From positions 11,723-75,722 of the forward strand of contig JAURMM010000016.1 in assembly GCA_030830685.1 (NCBI GenBank): 64,000 bases of DNA, written 5' to 3'. A model generated the notes under the pieces. The model ran no database searches and was not told where the DNA came from. It worked only from the letters and a program-made list of their open reading frames with translations. Source of the DNA: Gammaproteobacteria bacterium (lineage in GTDB: Bacteria > Pseudomonadota > Gammaproteobacteria > Ga0077536). Below are positions 27,550 through 31,398 of the stretch, in pieces. Within the stretch, counting starts at the first letter, position 1; each line of letters opens with the position of its first letter. Made by a program: the position numbers and the translations under genes.

Positions 27550-27602
27550 TCGCGCTGCTAAGGCGAGGCGCGACCAATCAGACTCTCTAAAGGTGTGAAC
27601 GT

Positions 27603-28877
27603 TTGCCAGCCGTTGCTGAACCCAAAACGAATGTAGCCAAGACCGCGACCACCGCGGCCCTTCAGCTGGTCAGGCGAGCCTGCTTGGCAATGGTGTTTCT
27701 ACTCGTGGCGCGTGAACTGGGGCCCGCCGACTATGGGGCATTGGCTGCACTCGTAGCCATGAGTGCCATGCTCTCACCCTTCTCAGGGCTCGGGGTCGAT
27801 TTCTCAGCGCTCAGGATGGTGGCACAAAATCCAAACAGTGCCGGAGCTGTTCTGGCAGCCGCGGTGCGGCGGATACTCTGGTCGGGTAGCGGGCTCCTCC
27901 TGCTTGGCTGGGCCGCGCTCTTCTTTTGGTCCCCAAAGGGGGTATCACCATGGGTATTCGGCCTCCTGCTGGCGGCTGAAGTCCTTCCTTTGAAGCTGAC
28001 CGAACTCGTGGCCAAGATGGAACAGGGCCTCGGACAACTGGTGCGTATGGGATTGGTTCGGCTTTACCCAACCCTGAGCCGCCTTCTTGCTGCGGGAGTA
28101 CTGGTAACCTTCCCATGGTCTGAGGACATTGACAGGCTTGGCGTGTGGGCAGCCTTGTATTTCGGGGCTGGTGCGTTGGCGGCCCTGACCGCCCTCGCAC
28201 TGTTCAAATCAAAACGAGTGATCCGGAACTTCGGATTCCGCCCATTGCCCTTCCGGGAAGGCATCAGCTTCGCATTGGGGCTTGTCGGTTTCAGACTTCT
28301 CACGGAGGCTGACAAAGTTGTAGTTTTCTTGCTCGGGGATTCGGCTGAAGGTGCGGGAAGTTATGCGGTGGCTTATCGGCTGGTAGAACTTTTGTTGATC
28401 CCTTTGGCTGCCGGGTTAGCGGTCATTCAGGGTCGGCAGTTGGCCTTGGCAGGAAGGGGTGAAAAGGTCCGCCTTCTTGCCGATAGCCGCAGACCTCTGA
28501 TGTGGATACTGCTTTCGAGTATCGTCCTAGGCCTCGCGTTGGGCAGCAGCGGAGCCTTGCTCGCAAAGGGAGTGTTGGGACAAGGATTCTCTGTGATAGC
28601 CGAGATTGCCGGCCCCATGTCACTGATGCCTCTGGCCATAGGGCTTCGAATGTATTTCGATCAGATGGCAGTATCGTTAGGACTTCTTGGACCCCGACTG
28701 CTGGTGGTGTGGTGCATGGGTGCGCTGGCTCTGACGCTGAATTGCCTTTTCGTCCCGAATTACGGTTGGACGGTAGTTGCCTGGGTTTGTGTAATGTGTG
28801 AATCAACAACTGCGGCATCTCTTGCTGTGGTCAGTTTCATGCATGTGCGCGGTGCTTCCGGGAGATTCGCGACATGA
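27603..28877 (+). CDS. MOP-superfamily polysaccharide flippase/export protein (Wzx-like)
   Basis: 424 aa with about 12 predicted TM helices. N-terminal region resembles Wzx/polysaccharide biosynthesis proteins ('LVRRACLAMVFLLVARELGPADYGALAALVAMSAM'). Confidence 0.6.
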   Translation: MPAVAEPKTNVAKTATTAALQLVRRACLAMVFLLVARELGPADYGALAALVAMSAMLSPFSGLGVDFSALRMVAQNPNSAGAVLAAAVRRILWSGSGLLLLGWAALFFWSPKGVSPWVFGLLLAAEVLPLKLTELVAKMEQGLGQLVRMGLVRLYPTLSRLLAAGVLVTFPWSEDIDRLGVWAALYFGAGALAALTALALFKSKRVIRNFGFRPLPFREGISFALGLVGFRLLTEADKVVVFLLGDSAEGAGSYAVAYRLVELLLIPLAAGLAVIQGRQLALAGRGEKVRLLADSRRPLMWILLSSIVLGLALGSSGALLAKGVLGQGFSVIAEIAGPMSLMPLAIGLRMYFDQMAVSLGLLGPRLLVVWCMGALALTLNCLFVPNYGWTVVAWVCVMCESTTAASLAVVSFMHVRGASGRFAT

Positions 28878-29653
28878 GGCGTATTCGTGTTCCAGGGGTC
28901 TGCTTCATCAAGGAGCACGGTGAGGCTTGTAGTCGCGACTGGCAGAGATTACGCAGTTTTACGGAGTTGGTAGATCAGGTGCCCGGACTGGTCACCGCGC
29001 GGCCTTTGTGGCATGACCGGGGAAGTGGGCAGATCGGGTATCAGTGGTTGGACAATCTGGCCCCCTGCTGGGAAGTGATTGATGCCCGCTGGTTCGCCTC
29101 GTTTGGAGGCCTTTTGGCGCAGCTACAGCAGCTCAAGCCACGGGATCTCCCTGCTGATCTTCTGCTGTGCGGTGCTCACCCGGTCGATTTTCCCGGTGTG
29201 GACCATCGCGACGCCCTCTTGCTCACGCACGCCACACCGCAGGGCTGGTTTCACGGCGATTTGTGGATGGGCAATGTCGCTGCGTGTCCTTCCGGCGAGG
29301 TTGCTCTGCTGGACCCTATTCCATCTCCTTGGCTATTCAACACCGGTCATTGCATCGCCCCTGGGGCGCTCGACGCCGCGATGTTCCACATGAGCCTCTA
29401 CTTCTCACATCCGTTGTGGAGGACGCTGCGCGGAATGCCTTTGAAACTTGTCGATGCGGGGCATGCGTTCCTCGAAGGCTATCTCAATGAGTTATCTGCA
29501 AAATCGGCTCGACCCTCAATGCTGCGCCTCAGTGCAGCATTAGCGTCGCGCTACGTCAGCCTCTACAGTCAGCGACTGCGCTGGCCCGTCGCAACGCTCA
29601 AACGACTTGCCGCGCAGCGTTTATCTTCCAAATTGAAGGAAAATTTGACGTGA
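28874..29653 (+). CDS. Protein-kinase-like fold phosphotransferase (APH / LPS-kinase (Kdo/WaaP) / choline-kinase-like)
   Basis: 259 aa with catalytic-loop motif 'HGDLWMGNV' (HGDxxxxN) followed by 'VALLDP' (DFG-equivalent). ATGA overlap with the flippase stop. Substrate unknown. Confidence 0.5.
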   Translation: MRRIRVPGVCFIKEHGEACSRDWQRLRSFTELVDQVPGLVTARPLWHDRGSGQIGYQWLDNLAPCWEVIDARWFASFGGLLAQLQQLKPRDLPADLLLCGAHPVDFPGVDHRDALLLTHATPQGWFHGDLWMGNVAACPSGEVALLDPIPSPWLFNTGHCIAPGALDAAMFHMSLYFSHPLWRTLRGMPLKLVDAGHAFLEGYLNELSAKSARPSMLRLSAALASRYVSLYSQRLRWPVATLKRLAAQRLSSKLKENLT

Positions 29654-30396
29654 CGAAGCCAACGGACTCGTATCGCAAAAGCCACGTCGGACCCGGAATT
29701 GGAAAACGGTATGACCAGGCTCACGCAGGGAGACTTGATTCGCTTGTCTGGGATGAGCACGTCAAACCGCTGCTACGGGAGCTCCTTGCCCGTGAGGCCG
29801 GCCTTCATTCCGCGTCGCGCTATCTGGACTTCGCATGTGGTACTGGCCGCATTCTCAAACAGGGATTGGCATTCTTCCCTGAAGGAATCGGCGTGGATAT
29901 CTCAATTGATATGCTTACAGAAGCCAGGGCGCGTGTGCCCGGTGCTCAGCTCATACAAGCGGATGTGACGAATGACTCCCTCCCGGAGCAACTAAACGGG
30001 ATGTTCGACTGCGTGACCATGTTCCGGTTCCTGCTCAATGCCGAACCGGAACTCCGTCGGTCTGTGCTCAAGTGGCTGGCTGCACACATGCATCCGGGTG
30101 CGGCACTCATTGGTAACAATCACATGTGCTCAGCGAGCGTCGGGGGCCTACTCACCCACCTTGCGCGGACTTTTTCAGGTTCATCGAAAAACGTTCTATC
30201 GCGCAAGGAAGTGGAATCGTTGCTGGTACAAGCGGGTTTCCGCATTGAAGCCTGGCACGGCTTCAGAGTTCTTCCGTCATTGAGGGGGAAACCTGCTCTG
30301 GGTTGGTGGCTGCAGCGACGTCTGGAGCGGGTCGCGTTGACTTTGGGCTTAGGTAGATTTGGCGTTGAACAGGTGTTTGTGGCCCGAAGGATCTGA
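29650..30396 (+). CDS. Class I SAM-dependent methyltransferase
   Basis: 248 aa with motif I 'LDFACGTGRI'. 4-nt overlap with the upstream kinase-like gene. Confidence 0.7.
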   Translation: MTKPTDSYRKSHVGPGIGKRYDQAHAGRLDSLVWDEHVKPLLRELLAREAGLHSASRYLDFACGTGRILKQGLAFFPEGIGVDISIDMLTEARARVPGAQLIQADVTNDSLPEQLNGMFDCVTMFRFLLNAEPELRRSVLKWLAAHMHPGAALIGNNHMCSASVGGLLTHLARTFSGSSKNVLSRKEVESLLVQAGFRIEAWHGFRVLPSLRGKPALGWWLQRRLERVALTLGLGRFGVEQVFVARRI

Positions 30397-30408
30397 GGCC
30401 TCAGGACT

Positions 30409-31398
30409 GTGAAAGGAATTTCTGCGATCCTGCCCGCGGGCAGTGGAGCCATGGTGGTGCACCAAGCGCTTGCGGCATCGATACCCGGATACCATTGCCT
30501 GACCTATGAACCGGGCCGGGAATGGTTCCCTCCCTCACTGCTTCTGGCGCGCGGGGCGGCTGCGCCATTGGTGCATGCCCCCCCGGATCACGCTGTATGG
30601 GTTACTCCCAAAAACTCGCGGCTGCTCGTCACCGTGCACAACTATTATCTTGACGCGAGCACCAAGACGTTCAGTTCCTGTGTTCAGCGGATTCACTACC
30701 GGACAGACCTGAGGCTGTTTACCAAGCGTGCGCTTGCGAGGGCTGATGGTGTGACTGCTGTCAGCCAGTTCCTGGCGGATCTGGTACGCGACGACTTGGG
30801 CTATTCAGGCAAAATTACGGTCATACCGAACGGTATCGATCTCGGTCGTTTCCACACTCCCACCGAACGCCTCCAGCGTTCGACTGTCAGGATTCTGTTC
30901 GCGGGCAATCTCTCTGTCAGGAAGGGGGCGAGAATTCTGGAAGCCCTGCCCAGCCTCATGGATCCTTCAGCTGAGCTGTGGATCGCCAGCGGTCTGCGGC
31001 ACCAGCATTCTTCTGCGCAAATAAAGCATCAGAACGTCCGTTGGCTGGGGAGGGTTCCATTAGTCGAGATGCCGGAGCTGTACCGCAGTGTGGATATCCT
31101 TTTGCTGCCAAGTTTTCGTGAGGGATGCAGCCTGACCATGGTGGAGGCCATGGCCAGCGGACTCCCGGTGATTGCGGCCGACGCCCCCTGCTTCCGCGAG
31201 TTTCTTATGCCGGAGCAGGGCGCGTTGTTGGCGCGGCCGGGCTCTGCGGAGGAAATGGCCGAACAGATAAATCGCCTGGTTCGCGATCCGGAGTTGCGGC
31301 TACGCATGGGCAGCTTCAATCGAAATGAAGCGGTGCGTCGCTTCGACCGCTCAGTGATGATTTCCGCATATCGAGCGGCGCTGGACTCAATCTTTTGA
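30409..31398 (+). CDS. GT4-family (GT-B fold) glycosyltransferase
   Basis: 329 aa with C-terminal 'LLPSFREGCSLTMVEAMASGLPVIAADAPCFREF' (group-1 GT signature). GC content is core-like, unlike the upstream island genes. Confidence 0.75.
   Translation: MKGISAILPAGSGAMVVHQALAASIPGYHCLTYEPGREWFPPSLLLARGAAAPLVHAPPDHAVWVTPKNSRLLVTVHNYYLDASTKTFSSCVQRIHYRTDLRLFTKRALARADGVTAVSQFLADLVRDDLGYSGKITVIPNGIDLGRFHTPTERLQRSTVRILFAGNLSVRKGARILEALPSLMDPSAELWIASGLRHQHSSAQIKHQNVRWLGRVPLVEMPELYRSVDILLLPSFREGCSLTMVEAMASGLPVIAADAPCFREFLMPEQGALLARPGSAEEMAEQINRLVRDPELRLRMGSFNRNEAVRRFDRSVMISAYRAALDSIF

What the first reader, a model, noticed from the sequence alone, without database searches (positions are those of the whole stretch)
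27550..31398. Five-gene plus-strand operon (flippase, kinase-fold enzyme, methyltransferase, GT4) divergent from GT4-GT2 across a 53-bp gap
Stop and start codons overlap (28874/28877, 29650/29653) or are 12 nt apart (30396/30409), which suggests translational coupling. The operon is transcribed divergently from the GT4/GT2 pair with only 53 bp (27550-27602) between start codons, so the two promoters must overlap. The mix of a kinase-fold phosphotransferase, a methyltransferase and GT4s suggests a phosphorylated and/or methylated sugar decoration; possibly an elaboration of the primary O-linked sugar, or a separate LPS modification. The last GT4 has core-like GC, unlike the rest of the island.
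Basis: partly seen in the sequence, partly recalled or inferred. Interest (0 to 1): 0.55.

Follow-up and report, generated by a model that had tools for sequence, protein, structure and literature searches.

The report
Sugar-building operon beside a pilin gene
This is a real, tightly packed four-gene (not five-gene) operon that most likely builds, decorates and exports a sugar chain for the cell's type IV pili, and it includes a rare, unstudied small kinase always paired with a methyltransferase.

Summary
The coordinates, the stop/start overlaps and the 53-bp divergent gap are real. There are four plus-strand genes, not five. The last GT4 has island-like GC (59.0%), not core-like GC (about 63%).

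The genes are:
- a Wzx/MOP-type flippase (Pfam Polysacc_synt);
- a 259-aa soluble kinase;
- a class I SAM methyltransferase;
- a short GT4.

The kinase belongs to a rare, unannotated family: 56 clusters among 1.84 billion representatives. The Lys, Asp/Asn and Asp catalytic residues are invariant. The AlphaFold model is confident and matches APH, FN3K and sugar-kinase folds. It does not match LPS (Kdo/WaaP) kinases, and only marginally matches choline kinases.

Comparative loci show these genes are part of a recurring seven-gene module: TPR-bearing GT-C, polyprenyl-phosphate GT2, two GT4s, flippase, kinase and methyltransferase. The module lies beside pilA in six of the seven independent loci with enough flanking DNA. 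Kinase and methyltransferase are adjacent in nine of ten independent loci.

Best reading: this is the cytoplasmic assembly, decoration and export half of a TfpW-like pilin O-glycosylation island. It is not an LPS pathway. The chemistry is inferred and untested; it may be a phosphate, a methyl group, or a methyl-phosphate cap on an undecaprenyl-phosphate-linked oligosaccharide. Verdict: a new variant of a known kind, of moderate interest.

The parts
27550..27602 (.). 53-bp divergent intergenic region between GT4a (minus strand) and the flippase gene (plus strand).
   Evidence: Sequence read. It carries AAGGTG 7 nt upstream of TTG 27603. No sigma-70 match and no sigma-54 match. No notable repeats. 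No Rfam match.
27603..28877 (+). Wzx/MOP-type lipid-linked glycan flippase, 424 aa, TTG start.
   Evidence: Pfam PF01943 Polysacc_synt, 39.1 bits against a cut-off of 28.2. At least 10 hydrophobic segments. The NCBI and JGI calls are 424 aa. Orthologues sit in the same module in L004, L007, L009, L020 and L021.
28874..29653 (+). Soluble 259-aa APH/fructosamine-kinase-like small-molecule (probably sugar) kinase. It is a member of a rare, unannotated family.
   Evidence: Pfam hits to FN3K and APH are below threshold. The family has 56 clusters among 1.84 billion representatives. K13, D129, N134 and D147 are invariant. The family profile hits FN3K structure 3f7w at 8.5e-6. The AF2 model has pLDDT 94.3. 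Foldseek top hits are MTR kinase, GlcN kinase, maltokinase, ChoK and APH. Of 46 family members, 37 hit APH and 1 hits Kdo/WaaP. No TM segment.
29650..30396 (+). Class I SAM-dependent methyltransferase, 248 aa, always encoded directly after the kinase.
   Evidence: Pfam Methyltransf_25, _23, _12 and _11 are above their cut-offs. The motif D60-F-A-x-G-T-G-R67 is invariant. The nearest solved relatives are DesVI, CalS10 and TylM1, over the Rossmann core only. Homologues at 46-57% identity lie in the same module.
30409..31398 (+). Short GT4 (retaining, GT-B) glycosyltransferase GT4b, 329 aa. The alternative start is ATG 30451.
   Evidence: Pfam Glyco_trans_1_4, Glycos_transf_1 and Glyco_transf_4. 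The nearest solved relatives are MshA, PimA, PglA and PimB'. Orthologues at 34-45% identity lie in L004, L007, L009 and L020. No TM segment.
26320..27549 (-). GT4a glycosyltransferase, the divergent partner and part of the same conserved module.
   Evidence: Pfam GT4 domains. Orthologues at 36-44% identity lie in L004, L007, L009 and L020.
25384..26262 (-). GT2 polyprenyl-monophosphate sugar synthase (GtrB/ArnC/DPM1/AglJ-like) with C-terminal TM segments.
   Evidence: Pfam Glycos_transf_2. NCBIfam gives a full-length match to AglJ at 3.7e-31, plus Dol-P-hexose transferase and ArnC. PDB hits are ArnC at 5.9e-15 and DPMS at 1e-9. TM segments at 215-243 and 260-284. It is 52-63% identical across all modules.
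21487..25340 (+). Two paralogous TPR-bearing, GT-C-like membrane glycosyltransferases with TfpW-like architecture, directly downstream of pilA.
   Evidence: The family alignment shows an invariant F-D-D in the first loop and a Y-x6-P motif. The AF2 model has pLDDT 91.9. The only membrane protein among the top 50 Foldseek hits is ArnT, at E about 0.02. The C-terminal half is TPR. The architecture equals that described for TfpW.
20927..21370 (+). Type IVa major pilin gene pilA, the presumed glycosylation target.
   Evidence: The prepilin N-terminal motif [10 protein letters not shown] is present. NCBIfam pilin models match. It follows pilS and pilR.

Best explanation
The four genes form one transcription unit. 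It encodes the cytoplasmic assembly, decoration and export functions of a horizontally acquired pilin O-glycosylation island of the TfpW type.

**Proposed mechanism**
1. The module's GT2 (25384-26262) charges undecaprenyl phosphate with a hexose. The enzyme class is shown; the step is inferred.
2. The two soluble GT4 enzymes, GT4a and GT4b, extend this lipid-linked sugar on the cytoplasmic face (inferred).
3. The soluble APH-like kinase phosphorylates a sugar hydroxyl of the lipid-linked glycan. The adjacent SAM methyltransferase then adds a methyl group, either to a sugar or to that phosphate. Methylating the phosphate would give a WbdD-like methyl-phosphate cap (inferred).
4. The Wzx-type protein flips the finished lipid-linked glycan (family shown, substrate inferred).
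5. The TPR-bearing GT-C enzyme(s) encoded just after pilA transfer it to PilA in the periplasm. This rests on analogy with TfpW and on conserved synteny.

The overall logic resembles archaeal assembly of glycans on dolichol monophosphate more than classical Und-PP/PglL O-glycosylation.
For: **Operon anatomy**
- Four same-strand ORFs with junctions of -4, -4 and +12 nt, each with a Shine-Dalgarno-like motif.
- No convincing internal terminator.
- The unit is bounded by a divergent gene on one side and by convergent suhB on the other.

**Enzyme classes**
- Established.
- The kinase, methyltransferase and GT4b have no hydrophobic segments, so they act in the cytoplasm.

**A conserved module**
- GT-C/TPR, GT2, two GT4s, flippase, kinase and methyltransferase recur together, in different gene orders, in these loci:
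  - a related Gammaproteobacteria MAG (L004/L005; one organism, counted once);
  - Oleiagrimonas sp. C23AA (L006);
  - an uncultured Salinisphaera (L016);
  - two further metagenome contigs (L017, L020);
  - a Woeseiaceae MAG (L009).
- Partial copies occur in L007, L008, L019 and L021.
- pilA is adjacent in the window, L004/5, L006, L016, L017 and L020. That is six of the seven independent loci with enough flank.
- The kinase is directly followed by the methyltransferase in nine of ten independent loci. The junctions run from -10 to +3 nt where ORF coordinates are available.

**Absences and origin**
- No phosphoglycosyl transferase, Wzy, Wzz, WaaL or nucleotide-sugar gene lies in the window island or among the called genes of the module in L004, L016, L017 and L020.
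- The polyprenyl-monophosphate GT2 is always present.
- The island, including pilA, has 57.7% GC against 62-63% in the flanks, which fits horizontal acquisition.

**Match to TfpW**
- The GT-C proteins share TfpW's published description: about 646 aa, a DDX motif in the first periplasmic loop, a C-terminal TPR domain, and a position immediately downstream of pilA.
Against: - There is no transcript, glycan or pilin mass data. Every functional step is inferred.
- The GT-C fold is only weakly supported structurally: ArnT at E about 0.02 and TMq 0.31.
- Direct sequence homology to TfpW could not be tested.
- In the Woeseiaceae locus L009 the full module is flanked by a TonB-dependent receptor gene on one side and a C-terminal fragment resembling one on the other. 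No pilA was found on that 14-kb contig. Pilin may therefore not be the only or universal target.
- The methyltransferase's nearest solved relatives are NDP-aminosugar N-methyltransferases, not WbdD.
- The kinase is not related to the Src-like WbdD kinase domain.
- In L020 the gene after the kinase is a 460-aa P-loop protein instead of a methyltransferase.
- Extension of an Und-P-linked (monophosphate) sugar by GT4 enzymes has no established bacterial precedent that I know of (own knowledge). A housekeeping phosphoglycosyl transferase elsewhere in the genome could prime the glycan instead.
Confidence: 0.55

Rival explanations
1. The module glycosylates pilin, but the kinase and methyltransferase work on precursors rather than on the lipid-linked glycan. 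The kinase would be an anomeric sugar kinase, like MTR kinase, maltokinase or AmgK. The methyltransferase would methylate the resulting nucleotide sugar, like TylM1, DesVI or CalS10. That would supply an unusual methylated sugar donor to a GT4 or to the GT2.
For: The best Foldseek hits of the kinase are free-sugar kinases: 5-methylthioribose kinase, glucosamine kinase and maltokinase. The best solved relatives of the methyltransferase act on dTDP-sugars. Oleiagrimonas carries a DegT aminotransferase next to its module.
Against: No nucleotidyltransferase, dehydratase or aminotransferase is part of the conserved module. The methyltransferase similarity is confined to the SAM-binding core, residues about 4-150. 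The TM-scores to sugar kinases are only 0.5-0.57 and the kinase lacks their extra substrate domains.
Confidence: 0.2
2. The operon has nothing to do with pili. It modifies LPS, core or O-antigen, or makes a small exopolysaccharide or glycolipid, and merely sits in a variable region next to pilA.
For: Wzx flippases and GT4 enzymes are typical of O-antigen and EPS loci. Kinase plus methyltransferase chemistry is known from O-antigen capping by WbdD. In L009 the module is not next to pilA.
Against: The island has no Wzy, Wzz, WaaL, initiating phosphoglycosyl transferase or sugar-nucleotide genes. The kinase family does not match Kdo/WaaP: 1 of 46 members, at E 0.037. The module co-occurs with a TfpW-like GT-C in every locus with enough flank, and with pilA in six of seven, despite shuffled gene order.
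Confidence: 0.13
3. The kinase and methyltransferase make a phospho-amine head group. Ethanolamine would be converted to phosphoethanolamine and then N-methylated forms or phosphocholine, which would be attached to the glycan or the pilin, as in Lic or PptA-type decoration.
For: Choline/ethanolamine kinases, including LicA, are among the structural matches at E 1e-5 to 1e-4. Phosphoethanolamine N-methyltransferases appear weakly in the methyltransferase profile search at 5.8e-5.
Against: Only 1 of 46 family members touches the Choline_kinase Pfam model, at E 0.038. The module has no cytidylyltransferase (LicC), no LicD-type transferase and no PptA-type transferase. The PEAMT hits are far weaker than the sugar-methyltransferase hits.
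Confidence: 0.05
4. The four genes are not one operon. Internal promoters drive them independently, and the overlaps are only compact gene packing.
For: No promoter was detected in the 53-bp gap. Gene order around the kinase-methyltransferase pair differs between lineages, so the flippase and GT4b are not obligatorily co-transcribed with it.
Against: Two 4-nt overlaps and a 12-nt gap leave no room for promoters outside coding sequence. No convincing internal terminator was found. Similarly tight junctions flank the kinase in the other loci where ORF coordinates are available.
Confidence: 0.07

Closest known systems
TfpW pilin arabinosylation system of Pseudomonas aeruginosa Pa5196/PA7 (group IV pilins)
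   Same: A GT-C-type membrane glycosyltransferase of about 640-650 aa is encoded immediately downstream of pilA. It has a DDX motif in the first periplasmic loop and a C-terminal periplasmic TPR domain. It uses a polyprenyl-monophosphate sugar donor made in the cytoplasm.
   Different: The D-arabinofuranose pathway (DprE1, DprE2, PRTase) and TfpX are absent here. In their place are a GT2 polyprenyl-P hexose synthase, two GT4s, a Wzx-type flippase, a kinase and a methyltransferase. The window has two GT-C paralogues. Direct sequence homology to TfpW was not tested. The Y-x6-P part of TfpW's proline motif is present, but the strict PF-x7-P part is not.
WbdD of E. coli O9a / Klebsiella O3 (bifunctional kinase-methyltransferase that caps polymannose with methyl phosphate)
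   Same: A sugar-hydroxyl kinase is paired with a SAM methyltransferase in a locus rich in GT4 enzymes. This suggests a phosphate or methyl-phosphate terminal decoration made on a lipid-linked glycan in the cytoplasm.
   Different: WbdD is one polypeptide, ordered methyltransferase then kinase then coiled coil. Its kinase domain is Src-like, and it works with an ABC transporter. Here there are two separate proteins, ordered kinase then methyltransferase. The kinase is APH/FN3K-like and the exporter is Wzx-type. WbdD is absent from the sequence hits and from the top 50 structural hits.
Haloferax volcanii Agl N-glycosylation pathway (AglJ, AglG/I/E, AglP, AglR, AglB/AglS)
   Same: A GT2 primes a polyprenyl monophosphate. 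Soluble glycosyltransferases extend it. A SAM methyltransferase decorates it. A Polysacc_synt-type protein helps flipping. A GT-C enzyme transfers it to a surface filament or layer protein. The window GT2's best NCBIfam match is AglJ, full length, at 3.7e-31.
   Different: That pathway is archaeal, N-linked, uses a dolichol carrier and has no kinase. The AglJ score here, 108.6 bits, is far below the equivalog cut-off of 325. The resemblance is one of logic, not orthology.
Three-component extracytoplasmic glycosylation systems (GtrA/GtrB/GtrC; CsbB/GtcA/YfhO; ArnC/ArnEF/ArnT)
   Same: A polyprenyl-phosphate GT2 synthase works with a flippase and a GT-C transferase.
   Different: The small GtrA/ArnEF-type flippase is replaced by a Wzx/MOP protein with at least 10 hydrophobic segments. 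Four cytoplasmic tailoring enzymes are added: two GT4s, a kinase and a methyltransferase. That implies an oligosaccharide donor rather than a single sugar.
APH / fructosamine-3-kinase / MTR-kinase group of eukaryotic-like small-molecule kinases
   Same: It has the bilobal kinase fold, the beta3 Lys, the HGDxWxGN catalytic loop and a following Asp.
   Different: The protein is below the Pfam gathering thresholds: 16.8 against 22.4 bits and 15.1 against 23.2 bits. It is only 259 aa, without the extra substrate-binding inserts. It forms its own rare family, whose nearest member is 40% identical.
TylM1 / DesVI / CalS10 NDP-aminosugar N-methyltransferases
   Same: These are the best solved sequence relatives of the methyltransferase: profile E 7.7e-14 to 1e-11, and class I fold.
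   Different: Similarity covers only the SAM-binding core. No aminosugar pathway genes lie in the island, so the substrate is unlikely to be the same.

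Membership tests
Wzx / MOP (Polysacc_synt, PF01943) lipid-linked glycan flippases | Match to the family HMM above the curated threshold. | tested here: met
   PF01943 scores 39.1 bits against a cut-off of 28.2, over residues 13-266.
Wzx / MOP (Polysacc_synt, PF01943) lipid-linked glycan flippases | Polytopic membrane protein with about 12 TM helices. | tested here: met
   A crude hydropathy scan finds at least 10 hydrophobic segments in 424 aa.
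Wzx / MOP (Polysacc_synt, PF01943) lipid-linked glycan flippases | Translocation of a lipid-linked glycan. | not testable with these tools
   This needs genetics or biochemistry.
APH/FN3K-type eukaryotic-like kinases (Pfam PF01636, PF03881) | Catalytic residues: beta3 Lys, HxDxxxxN catalytic loop, metal-binding Asp. | tested here: met
   K13, D129, N134 and D147 are invariant across 46 family members.
APH/FN3K-type eukaryotic-like kinases (Pfam PF01636, PF03881) | HMM score above the Pfam gathering threshold. | tested here: not met
   The window protein scores 16.8 bits (cut-off 22.4) for FN3K and 15.1 bits (cut-off 23.2) for APH. At family level, 37 of 46 members hit APH and 31 of 46 hit FN3K at E<=1, with best values 2.9e-7 and 4.1e-6.
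APH/FN3K-type eukaryotic-like kinases (Pfam PF01636, PF03881) | Bilobal kinase fold. | tested here: met
   The AF2 model has pLDDT 94.3. Foldseek gives probability 1.00 and TMq 0.5-0.57 to MTR kinase, GlcN kinase, maltokinase, ChoK and APH.
LPS kinases (Kdo/WaaP family, PF06293) | Match to the family HMM. | tested here: not met
   One of 46 members matches, at E 0.037, and the window protein does not. None appears in the top 50 Foldseek hits.
Choline/ethanolamine kinases (PF01633) | Match to the family HMM, plus partner LicC/LicD-type genes. | tested here: not met
   One of 46 members matches, at E 0.038. The module has no cytidylyltransferase or LicD. Only the generic fold is similar.
WbdD-type methyl-phosphate capping enzymes | Homology to the WbdD kinase and methyltransferase domains. 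| tested here: not met
   WbdD is absent from the PDB sequence hits for the methyltransferase and the kinase, and from the top 50 structural hits. The WbdD kinase is Src-like.
WbdD-type methyl-phosphate capping enzymes | Sequential phosphorylation, then methylation of that phosphate, on a glycan terminus. | not testable with these tools
   Only the conserved kinase-then-methyltransferase adjacency, in nine of ten independent loci, speaks for functional coupling.
Class I SAM-dependent methyltransferases | Motif I (D/E-x-G-x-G-x-G) and an HMM score above threshold. | tested here: met
   Methyltransf_25 scores 42.7 bits against a cut-off of 27. D60, G64, T65 and G66 are invariant.
TylM1/DesVI NDP-aminosugar N,N-dimethyltransferases | Full-length homology, plus a genomic context of aminosugar biosynthesis. 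| tested here: inconclusive
   These are the best PDB hits, but only over residues about 4-150. The window island has no aminotransferase or dehydratase.
GT4 glycosyltransferases | GT-B fold domains Glyco_transf_4 and Glycos_transf_1 above threshold. | tested here: met
   For GT4b, PF13692 scores 89.2 bits, PF00534 scores 86.3 bits and PF13439 scores 48.7 bits.
TfpW-type pilin glycosylation island | A GT-C enzyme with a DDX motif and a C-terminal TPR domain, encoded immediately downstream of pilA. | tested here: met
   pilA at 20927-21370 is followed by two proteins of about 640-650 aa. F-D-D is invariant.
TfpW-type pilin glycosylation island | GT-C fold of the membrane domain. | tested here: inconclusive
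   ArnT (5ezm, 5f15) is the only membrane protein among the top 50 Foldseek hits, but at E about 0.02 and TMq 0.28-0.31. No Pfam or PDB sequence hit covers the TM part.
TfpW-type pilin glycosylation island | Sequence homology to TfpW itself, and D-Araf donor pathway genes. | not tested
DprE1/DprE2-type genes are not in the island, so the glycan must differ.
Canonical Wzx/Wzy O-antigen or EPS locus | Presence of an initiating phosphoglycosyl transferase, a Wzy polymerase and a chain-length regulator. | tested here: not met
   All eight large island ORFs were scanned and none is a PGT, Wzy or Wzz. The same holds for the called genes of the module in L004, L016, L017 and L020.

The most novel reading that the evidence does not exclude
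The seven-gene module would be a previously unrecognised bacterial route of protein O-glycosylation.
- An oligosaccharide is assembled on undecaprenyl monophosphate, following archaeal/eukaryotic Dol-P logic and needing no phosphoglycosyl transferase.
- It is capped with a methyl-phosphate group by a split kinase/methyltransferase pair, whose kinase belongs to a new APH-like family.
- It is flipped by a Wzx-type transporter.
- It is transferred en bloc to type IV pilin by a TfpW-like, TPR-bearing GT-C acting as an O-oligosaccharyltransferase.
Probability: 0.2. Interest if true: 0.75.

Novelty: new variant of a known kind. Interest (0 to 1): 0.5.

Why it matters
Pilin glycosylation changes pilus surface chemistry. 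In Pseudomonas it protects against pilus-specific phages, according to the abstract of bioRxiv 10.1101/150227 listed.

Only two routes are well described in pseudomonads: TfpO/PglL with Und-PP-linked O-units, and TfpW with D-arabinofuranose. This module would be a third, portable route. It is found across Gamma- and Betaproteobacteria and uses a different set of donor-building genes.

It would also give a first functional context to a rare, unannotated kinase family. It offers a testable case of glycan phosphorylation and methylation on a protein-linked sugar. If oligosaccharides really are built on undecaprenyl monophosphate and moved by a Wzx protein, it would widen what bacterial GT-C enzymes and flippases are thought to handle. 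It could also provide new parts for glycoengineering.

Tried and rejected
- **Word-indexed protein search with the kinase.** It found only the query itself. The exhaustive HMMER search was needed to find the family.
- **Single-sequence PDB search of the kinase.** It gave only a marginal FN3K hit at E 0.65. The family profile improved this to 8.5e-6.
- **GT-C profile against PDB sequences.** It returned only TPR proteins. Foldseek on the full model was likewise dominated by TPR hits, so the GT-C fold remains weakly supported.
- **Structure prediction with locus-derived GT-C sequences.** It was redone with proteins from the homology search.
- **WbdD homology.** This was considered and rejected at family level.
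- **LPS-kinase and choline-kinase membership.** Both were rejected.
- **Promoter, terminator, sigma-54, repeat, Rfam and tRNA scans.** They found nothing informative in the 53-bp gap or at the island borders.
- **Genome scan with the kinase alignment.** It did not recover the source genome. The likely reason is that the window protein reads HGDLWMGN, which lies outside the search pattern. The organism is known only as an uncultured Gammaproteobacteria-like MAG contig of 92,341 bp.
- **P0046 (Ectopseudomonas composti methyltransferase homologue).** Its genomic context could not be located.
- **Literature searches.** They found no description of this module.

Full report
**Observation**

The region 27603-31398 holds four consecutive plus-strand ORFs, not five:

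| Coordinates | Start codon | Length |
|---|---|---|
| 27603-28877 | TTG | 424 aa |
| 28874-29653 | ATG | 259 aa |
| 29650-30396 | GTG | 248 aa |
| 30409-31398 | GTG | 329 aa |

Each start has a Shine-Dalgarno-like motif 7-10 nt upstream.
- The upstream gene, GT4a (26320-27549), is divergent. That leaves 53 bp, 27550-27602.
- NCBI's gene calls on the source contig give exactly these four protein lengths. Another caller used later starts for the flippase (27690) and GT4b (30451).
- The long flippase form is supported. The Pfam alignment begins at residue 13. tblastn to a relative aligns from residue 1.
- Homologues of GT4a align from residue 4-7, so the gap might be 71 bp.
- The downstream gene, suhB, is convergent. 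Only 1 nt separates the two stop codons.
- No sigma-70 site or sigma-54 site falls in the gap. No convincing terminator lies inside the operon. No Rfam family and no tRNA gene was found.
- The claim that the last GT4 has core-like GC is wrong. GT4b is 59.0% GC with GC3 of 0.66. The island averages 57.7%. The flanks average 62.8 +/- 1.9%, and core genes have GC3 of 0.73-0.80.

**What the four proteins are**

- *Gene 1* is a MOP/Wzx-type flippase. Pfam Polysacc_synt is above threshold, and a crude hydropathy scan finds at least 10 hydrophobic segments.
- *Gene 2* is a soluble kinase.
  - On its own it gives only sub-threshold Pfam hits to fructosamine kinase and APH. It gives no NCBIfam hit.
  - The word-indexed search of 5.8 billion proteins found only the query itself.
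  - The exhaustive HMMER search of 1.84 billion cluster representatives found 56 relatives, nearly all 250-270 aa. The closest is 40% identical.
  - Their alignment has invariant K13, D129, N134 and D147. These are the ATP-binding Lys, the catalytic-loop Asp and Asn (HGDxWxGN), and the metal-binding Asp of the protein-kinase-like fold.
  - The family profile hits fructosamine-3-kinase structures at 8.5e-6 and 3.3e-5.
  - The AlphaFold model is confident, at pLDDT 94.3.
  - Its best structural matches are small-molecule and sugar kinases. They are 5-methylthioribose kinase, glucosamine kinase, maltokinase, choline/ethanolamine kinases, and aminoglycoside and macrolide phosphotransferases.
  - Scanning every family member against Pfam gives APH 37 of 46, fructosamine kinase 31 of 46, Kdo/WaaP 1 of 46 and choline kinase 1 of 46.
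It is not an LPS kinase and not convincingly a choline kinase.
- *Gene 3* is a class I SAM methyltransferase. Its nearest solved relatives are the NDP-aminosugar N-methyltransferases DesVI, CalS10 and TylM1, but only over the SAM-binding core.
- *Gene 4* is a short GT4. Its nearest solved relatives are lipid- or membrane-acceptor enzymes: MshA, PimA, PglA and PimB'.
- The kinase, methyltransferase and GT4b have no hydrophobic segments, so they act in the cytoplasm.

**Surroundings in the window**

The low-GC island runs from pilA to GT4b, 20927-31398. It lies between pilS-pilR and suhB. In order it contains:

1. A type IVa pilin gene.
2. Two paralogous membrane proteins of about 640-650 aa.
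   - Their C-terminal halves are TPR.
   - Their family has an invariant F-D-D in the first loop and a Y-x6-P motif.
   - A confident model (pLDDT 91.9) gives ArnT as the only membrane-protein match among the top 50 Foldseek hits, weakly (E about 0.02).
   - This architecture equals the published description of TfpW, the GT-C enzyme that glycosylates P. aeruginosa group IV pilin and is encoded directly after pilA.
3. On the minus strand, a GT2 with C-terminal TM segments. Its best matches are all polyprenyl-monophosphate sugar synthases: AglJ, Dol-P-hexose transferase, ArnC and DPMS.
4. GT4a, also on the minus strand.
5. The four-gene operon.

No phosphoglycosyl transferase, Wzy, Wzz, WaaL or nucleotide-sugar gene is present.

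**Comparative evidence**

The same gene set recurs elsewhere with shuffled order: TPR-GT-C, GT2, two GT4s, flippase, kinase and methyltransferase. `<` marks a minus-strand gene. L004 and L005 are the same organism and are counted once.

| Locus | Source | Gene order |
|---|---|---|
| L004/L005 | Gammaproteobacteria MAG | pilS pilR pilA GT-C wzx kin MT GT4b <GT2 <GT4a <suhB |
| L017 | metagenome contig | pilS pilR pilA pilA GT-C wzx kin MT <GT4 <GT4 <GT2 pilB pilC pilD |
| L016 | uncultured Salinisphaera | <pilin GT4 GT4 kin MT <wzx <GT2 <GT-C <pilin |
| L006 | Oleiagrimonas sp. C23AA | <pilC <pilB ... GT2 GT4 GT4 kin MT <wzx <GT-C <GT-C <pilA ... <pilA |
| L020 | metagenome contig; kinase only 24% identical | GT4 GT4 wzx kin [460-aa P-loop protein] <GT2 <GT-C <pilin <pilin pilB pilC pilD |
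| L009 | Woeseiaceae MAG | wzx kin MT <GT4b <GT4a <GT2 <GT-C; a TonB-dependent receptor on one flank, a fragment resembling one on the other; no pilA on the 14-kb contig |

- Partial copies lie on short contigs or at contig ends: L007, L008, L019 and L021.
- L021 appears to be nearly the same organism as L009 and is counted with it.
- The kinase is immediately followed by the methyltransferase in nine of ten independent loci. The junctions run from -10 to +3 nt where ORF coordinates are available.
- pilA is adjacent in six of the seven independent loci with enough flanking sequence.
- This is strong guilt-by-association evidence. The operon belongs functionally with the GT-C and GT2 genes, and usually with pilin.

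**Mechanism**

The shown parts are the enzyme classes, their cytoplasmic or membrane location, and the conserved module. The rest is inferred.

1. The GT2 makes Und-P-hexose.
2. The two GT4s extend it on the cytoplasmic face.
3. The kinase phosphorylates a sugar hydroxyl. The methyltransferase methylates either a sugar or that phosphate.
4. The Wzx-type protein flips the product.
5. The TfpW-like GT-C enzyme(s) transfer it to PilA.

Three points make this the most economical reading.
- All tailoring enzymes are cytoplasmic, so they must act before flipping.
- The module always brings its own polyprenyl-P GT2 and never a phosphoglycosyl transferase.
- It uses a large MOP flippase instead of the small GtrA-type protein of single-sugar three-component systems.

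The closest parallel in logic is the Haloferax volcanii Agl pathway. There AglJ primes dolichol phosphate and further glycosyltransferases extend it. AglP methylates the glycan, a Polysacc_synt-type protein (AglR) assists flipping, and GT-C enzymes transfer the glycan.

The kinase-methyltransferase pairing recalls WbdD, which caps E. coli O9a polymannose with methyl phosphate. The proteins here are not WbdD homologues. In L020 the methyltransferase is replaced by a P-loop protein. The methyl-phosphate idea is therefore only one possibility.

**Rivals**

- The kinase and methyltransferase may act on precursors, as an anomeric sugar kinase and an NDP-sugar methyltransferase. The identities of the best structural and sequence relatives favour this. 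The lack of any nucleotidyltransferase in the module disfavours it.
- The operon may serve LPS or EPS rather than pili. The missing hallmark genes, the non-LPS kinase class and the conserved GT-C/pilA linkage all disfavour this.
- The pair may make a phosphocholine- or phosphoethanolamine-type head group. Support is weak.
- The four genes may be expressed independently. The junction geometry makes this unlikely.

**Novelty and verdict**

- Literature searches found TfpW, WbdD, three-component systems and archaeal Agl pathways. They found nothing describing this module or this kinase family.
- I rate it a new variant of a known kind: a TfpW-type pilin glycosylation island with a different, uncharacterised donor-building cassette.
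The errors are four genes rather than five, and the GC claim.
- All chemistry remains untested.
- Interest is moderate, at 0.5. It would be higher if the monophosphate-linked oligosaccharide route or a methyl-phosphate cap were demonstrated.

Noticed in passing
window 23379-23451: The longest ORFs of the two GT-C paralogues overlap by 73 nt. A GTG at 23448 overlaps the first gene's TGA (23449-23451) as GTGA. The second GT-C therefore probably starts there, giving about 630 aa translationally coupled to the first.
   Followed up: partly
window 20817-20832: A sigma-54-like -24/-12 element, GGGCACGCTATGTGCA, lies about 95 bp upstream of pilA and just after pilS-pilR. This fits PilR-dependent pilA transcription. 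The window-wide number of such matches equals chance expectation.
   Followed up: no
window 31396-31402 and 31327-31344: The GT4b and suhB stop codons are convergent and separated by a single base. The only terminator-like hairpin for suhB lies inside the 3' coding region of GT4b, and it is weak, with a poor T-run. Read-through transcription of either gene would be antisense to the other.
   Followed up: no
L020 10759-12141: In a distant version of the module, the gene after the kinase is not a methyltransferase. It is a 460-aa protein with no significant Pfam domain and a thymidylate-kinase-like P-loop, YGTDGSGKTT, in its C-terminal half. This may be an alternative way of elaborating the phosphorylated sugar.
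   Followed up: partly
L009 (Woeseiaceae MAG), whole locus: The complete seven-gene module occurs with no pilin gene on the 14-kb contig. It is flanked by a TonB-dependent receptor gene and, at the other end, a C-terminal fragment resembling one. A SIS-domain protein and an amidohydrolase lie nearby. The target may therefore not always be pilin.
   Followed up: partly
L006 5077-6243 (Oleiagrimonas sp. C23AA): A DegT/DnrJ-family aminotransferase lies between pilB and the module. This hints at an aminosugar in that variant of the glycan. This cultured strain would be a practical experimental model.
   Followed up: no
window 20927-31398: The pilin gene itself shares the low GC of the island: 56.5%, against about 63% in the flanks. 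The pilin allele and its glycosylation genes were probably acquired together, as with P. aeruginosa pilin groups and their accessory genes.
   Followed up: partly
window 31460-33004 and 32940-34178: Long ORFs here are largely high-GC artefacts. The real trmJ-like SpoU methylase is only the last 257 aa or so of the 514-aa ORF, according to gene calls on L001. The 412-aa ORF lies antisense to purM.
   Followed up: no
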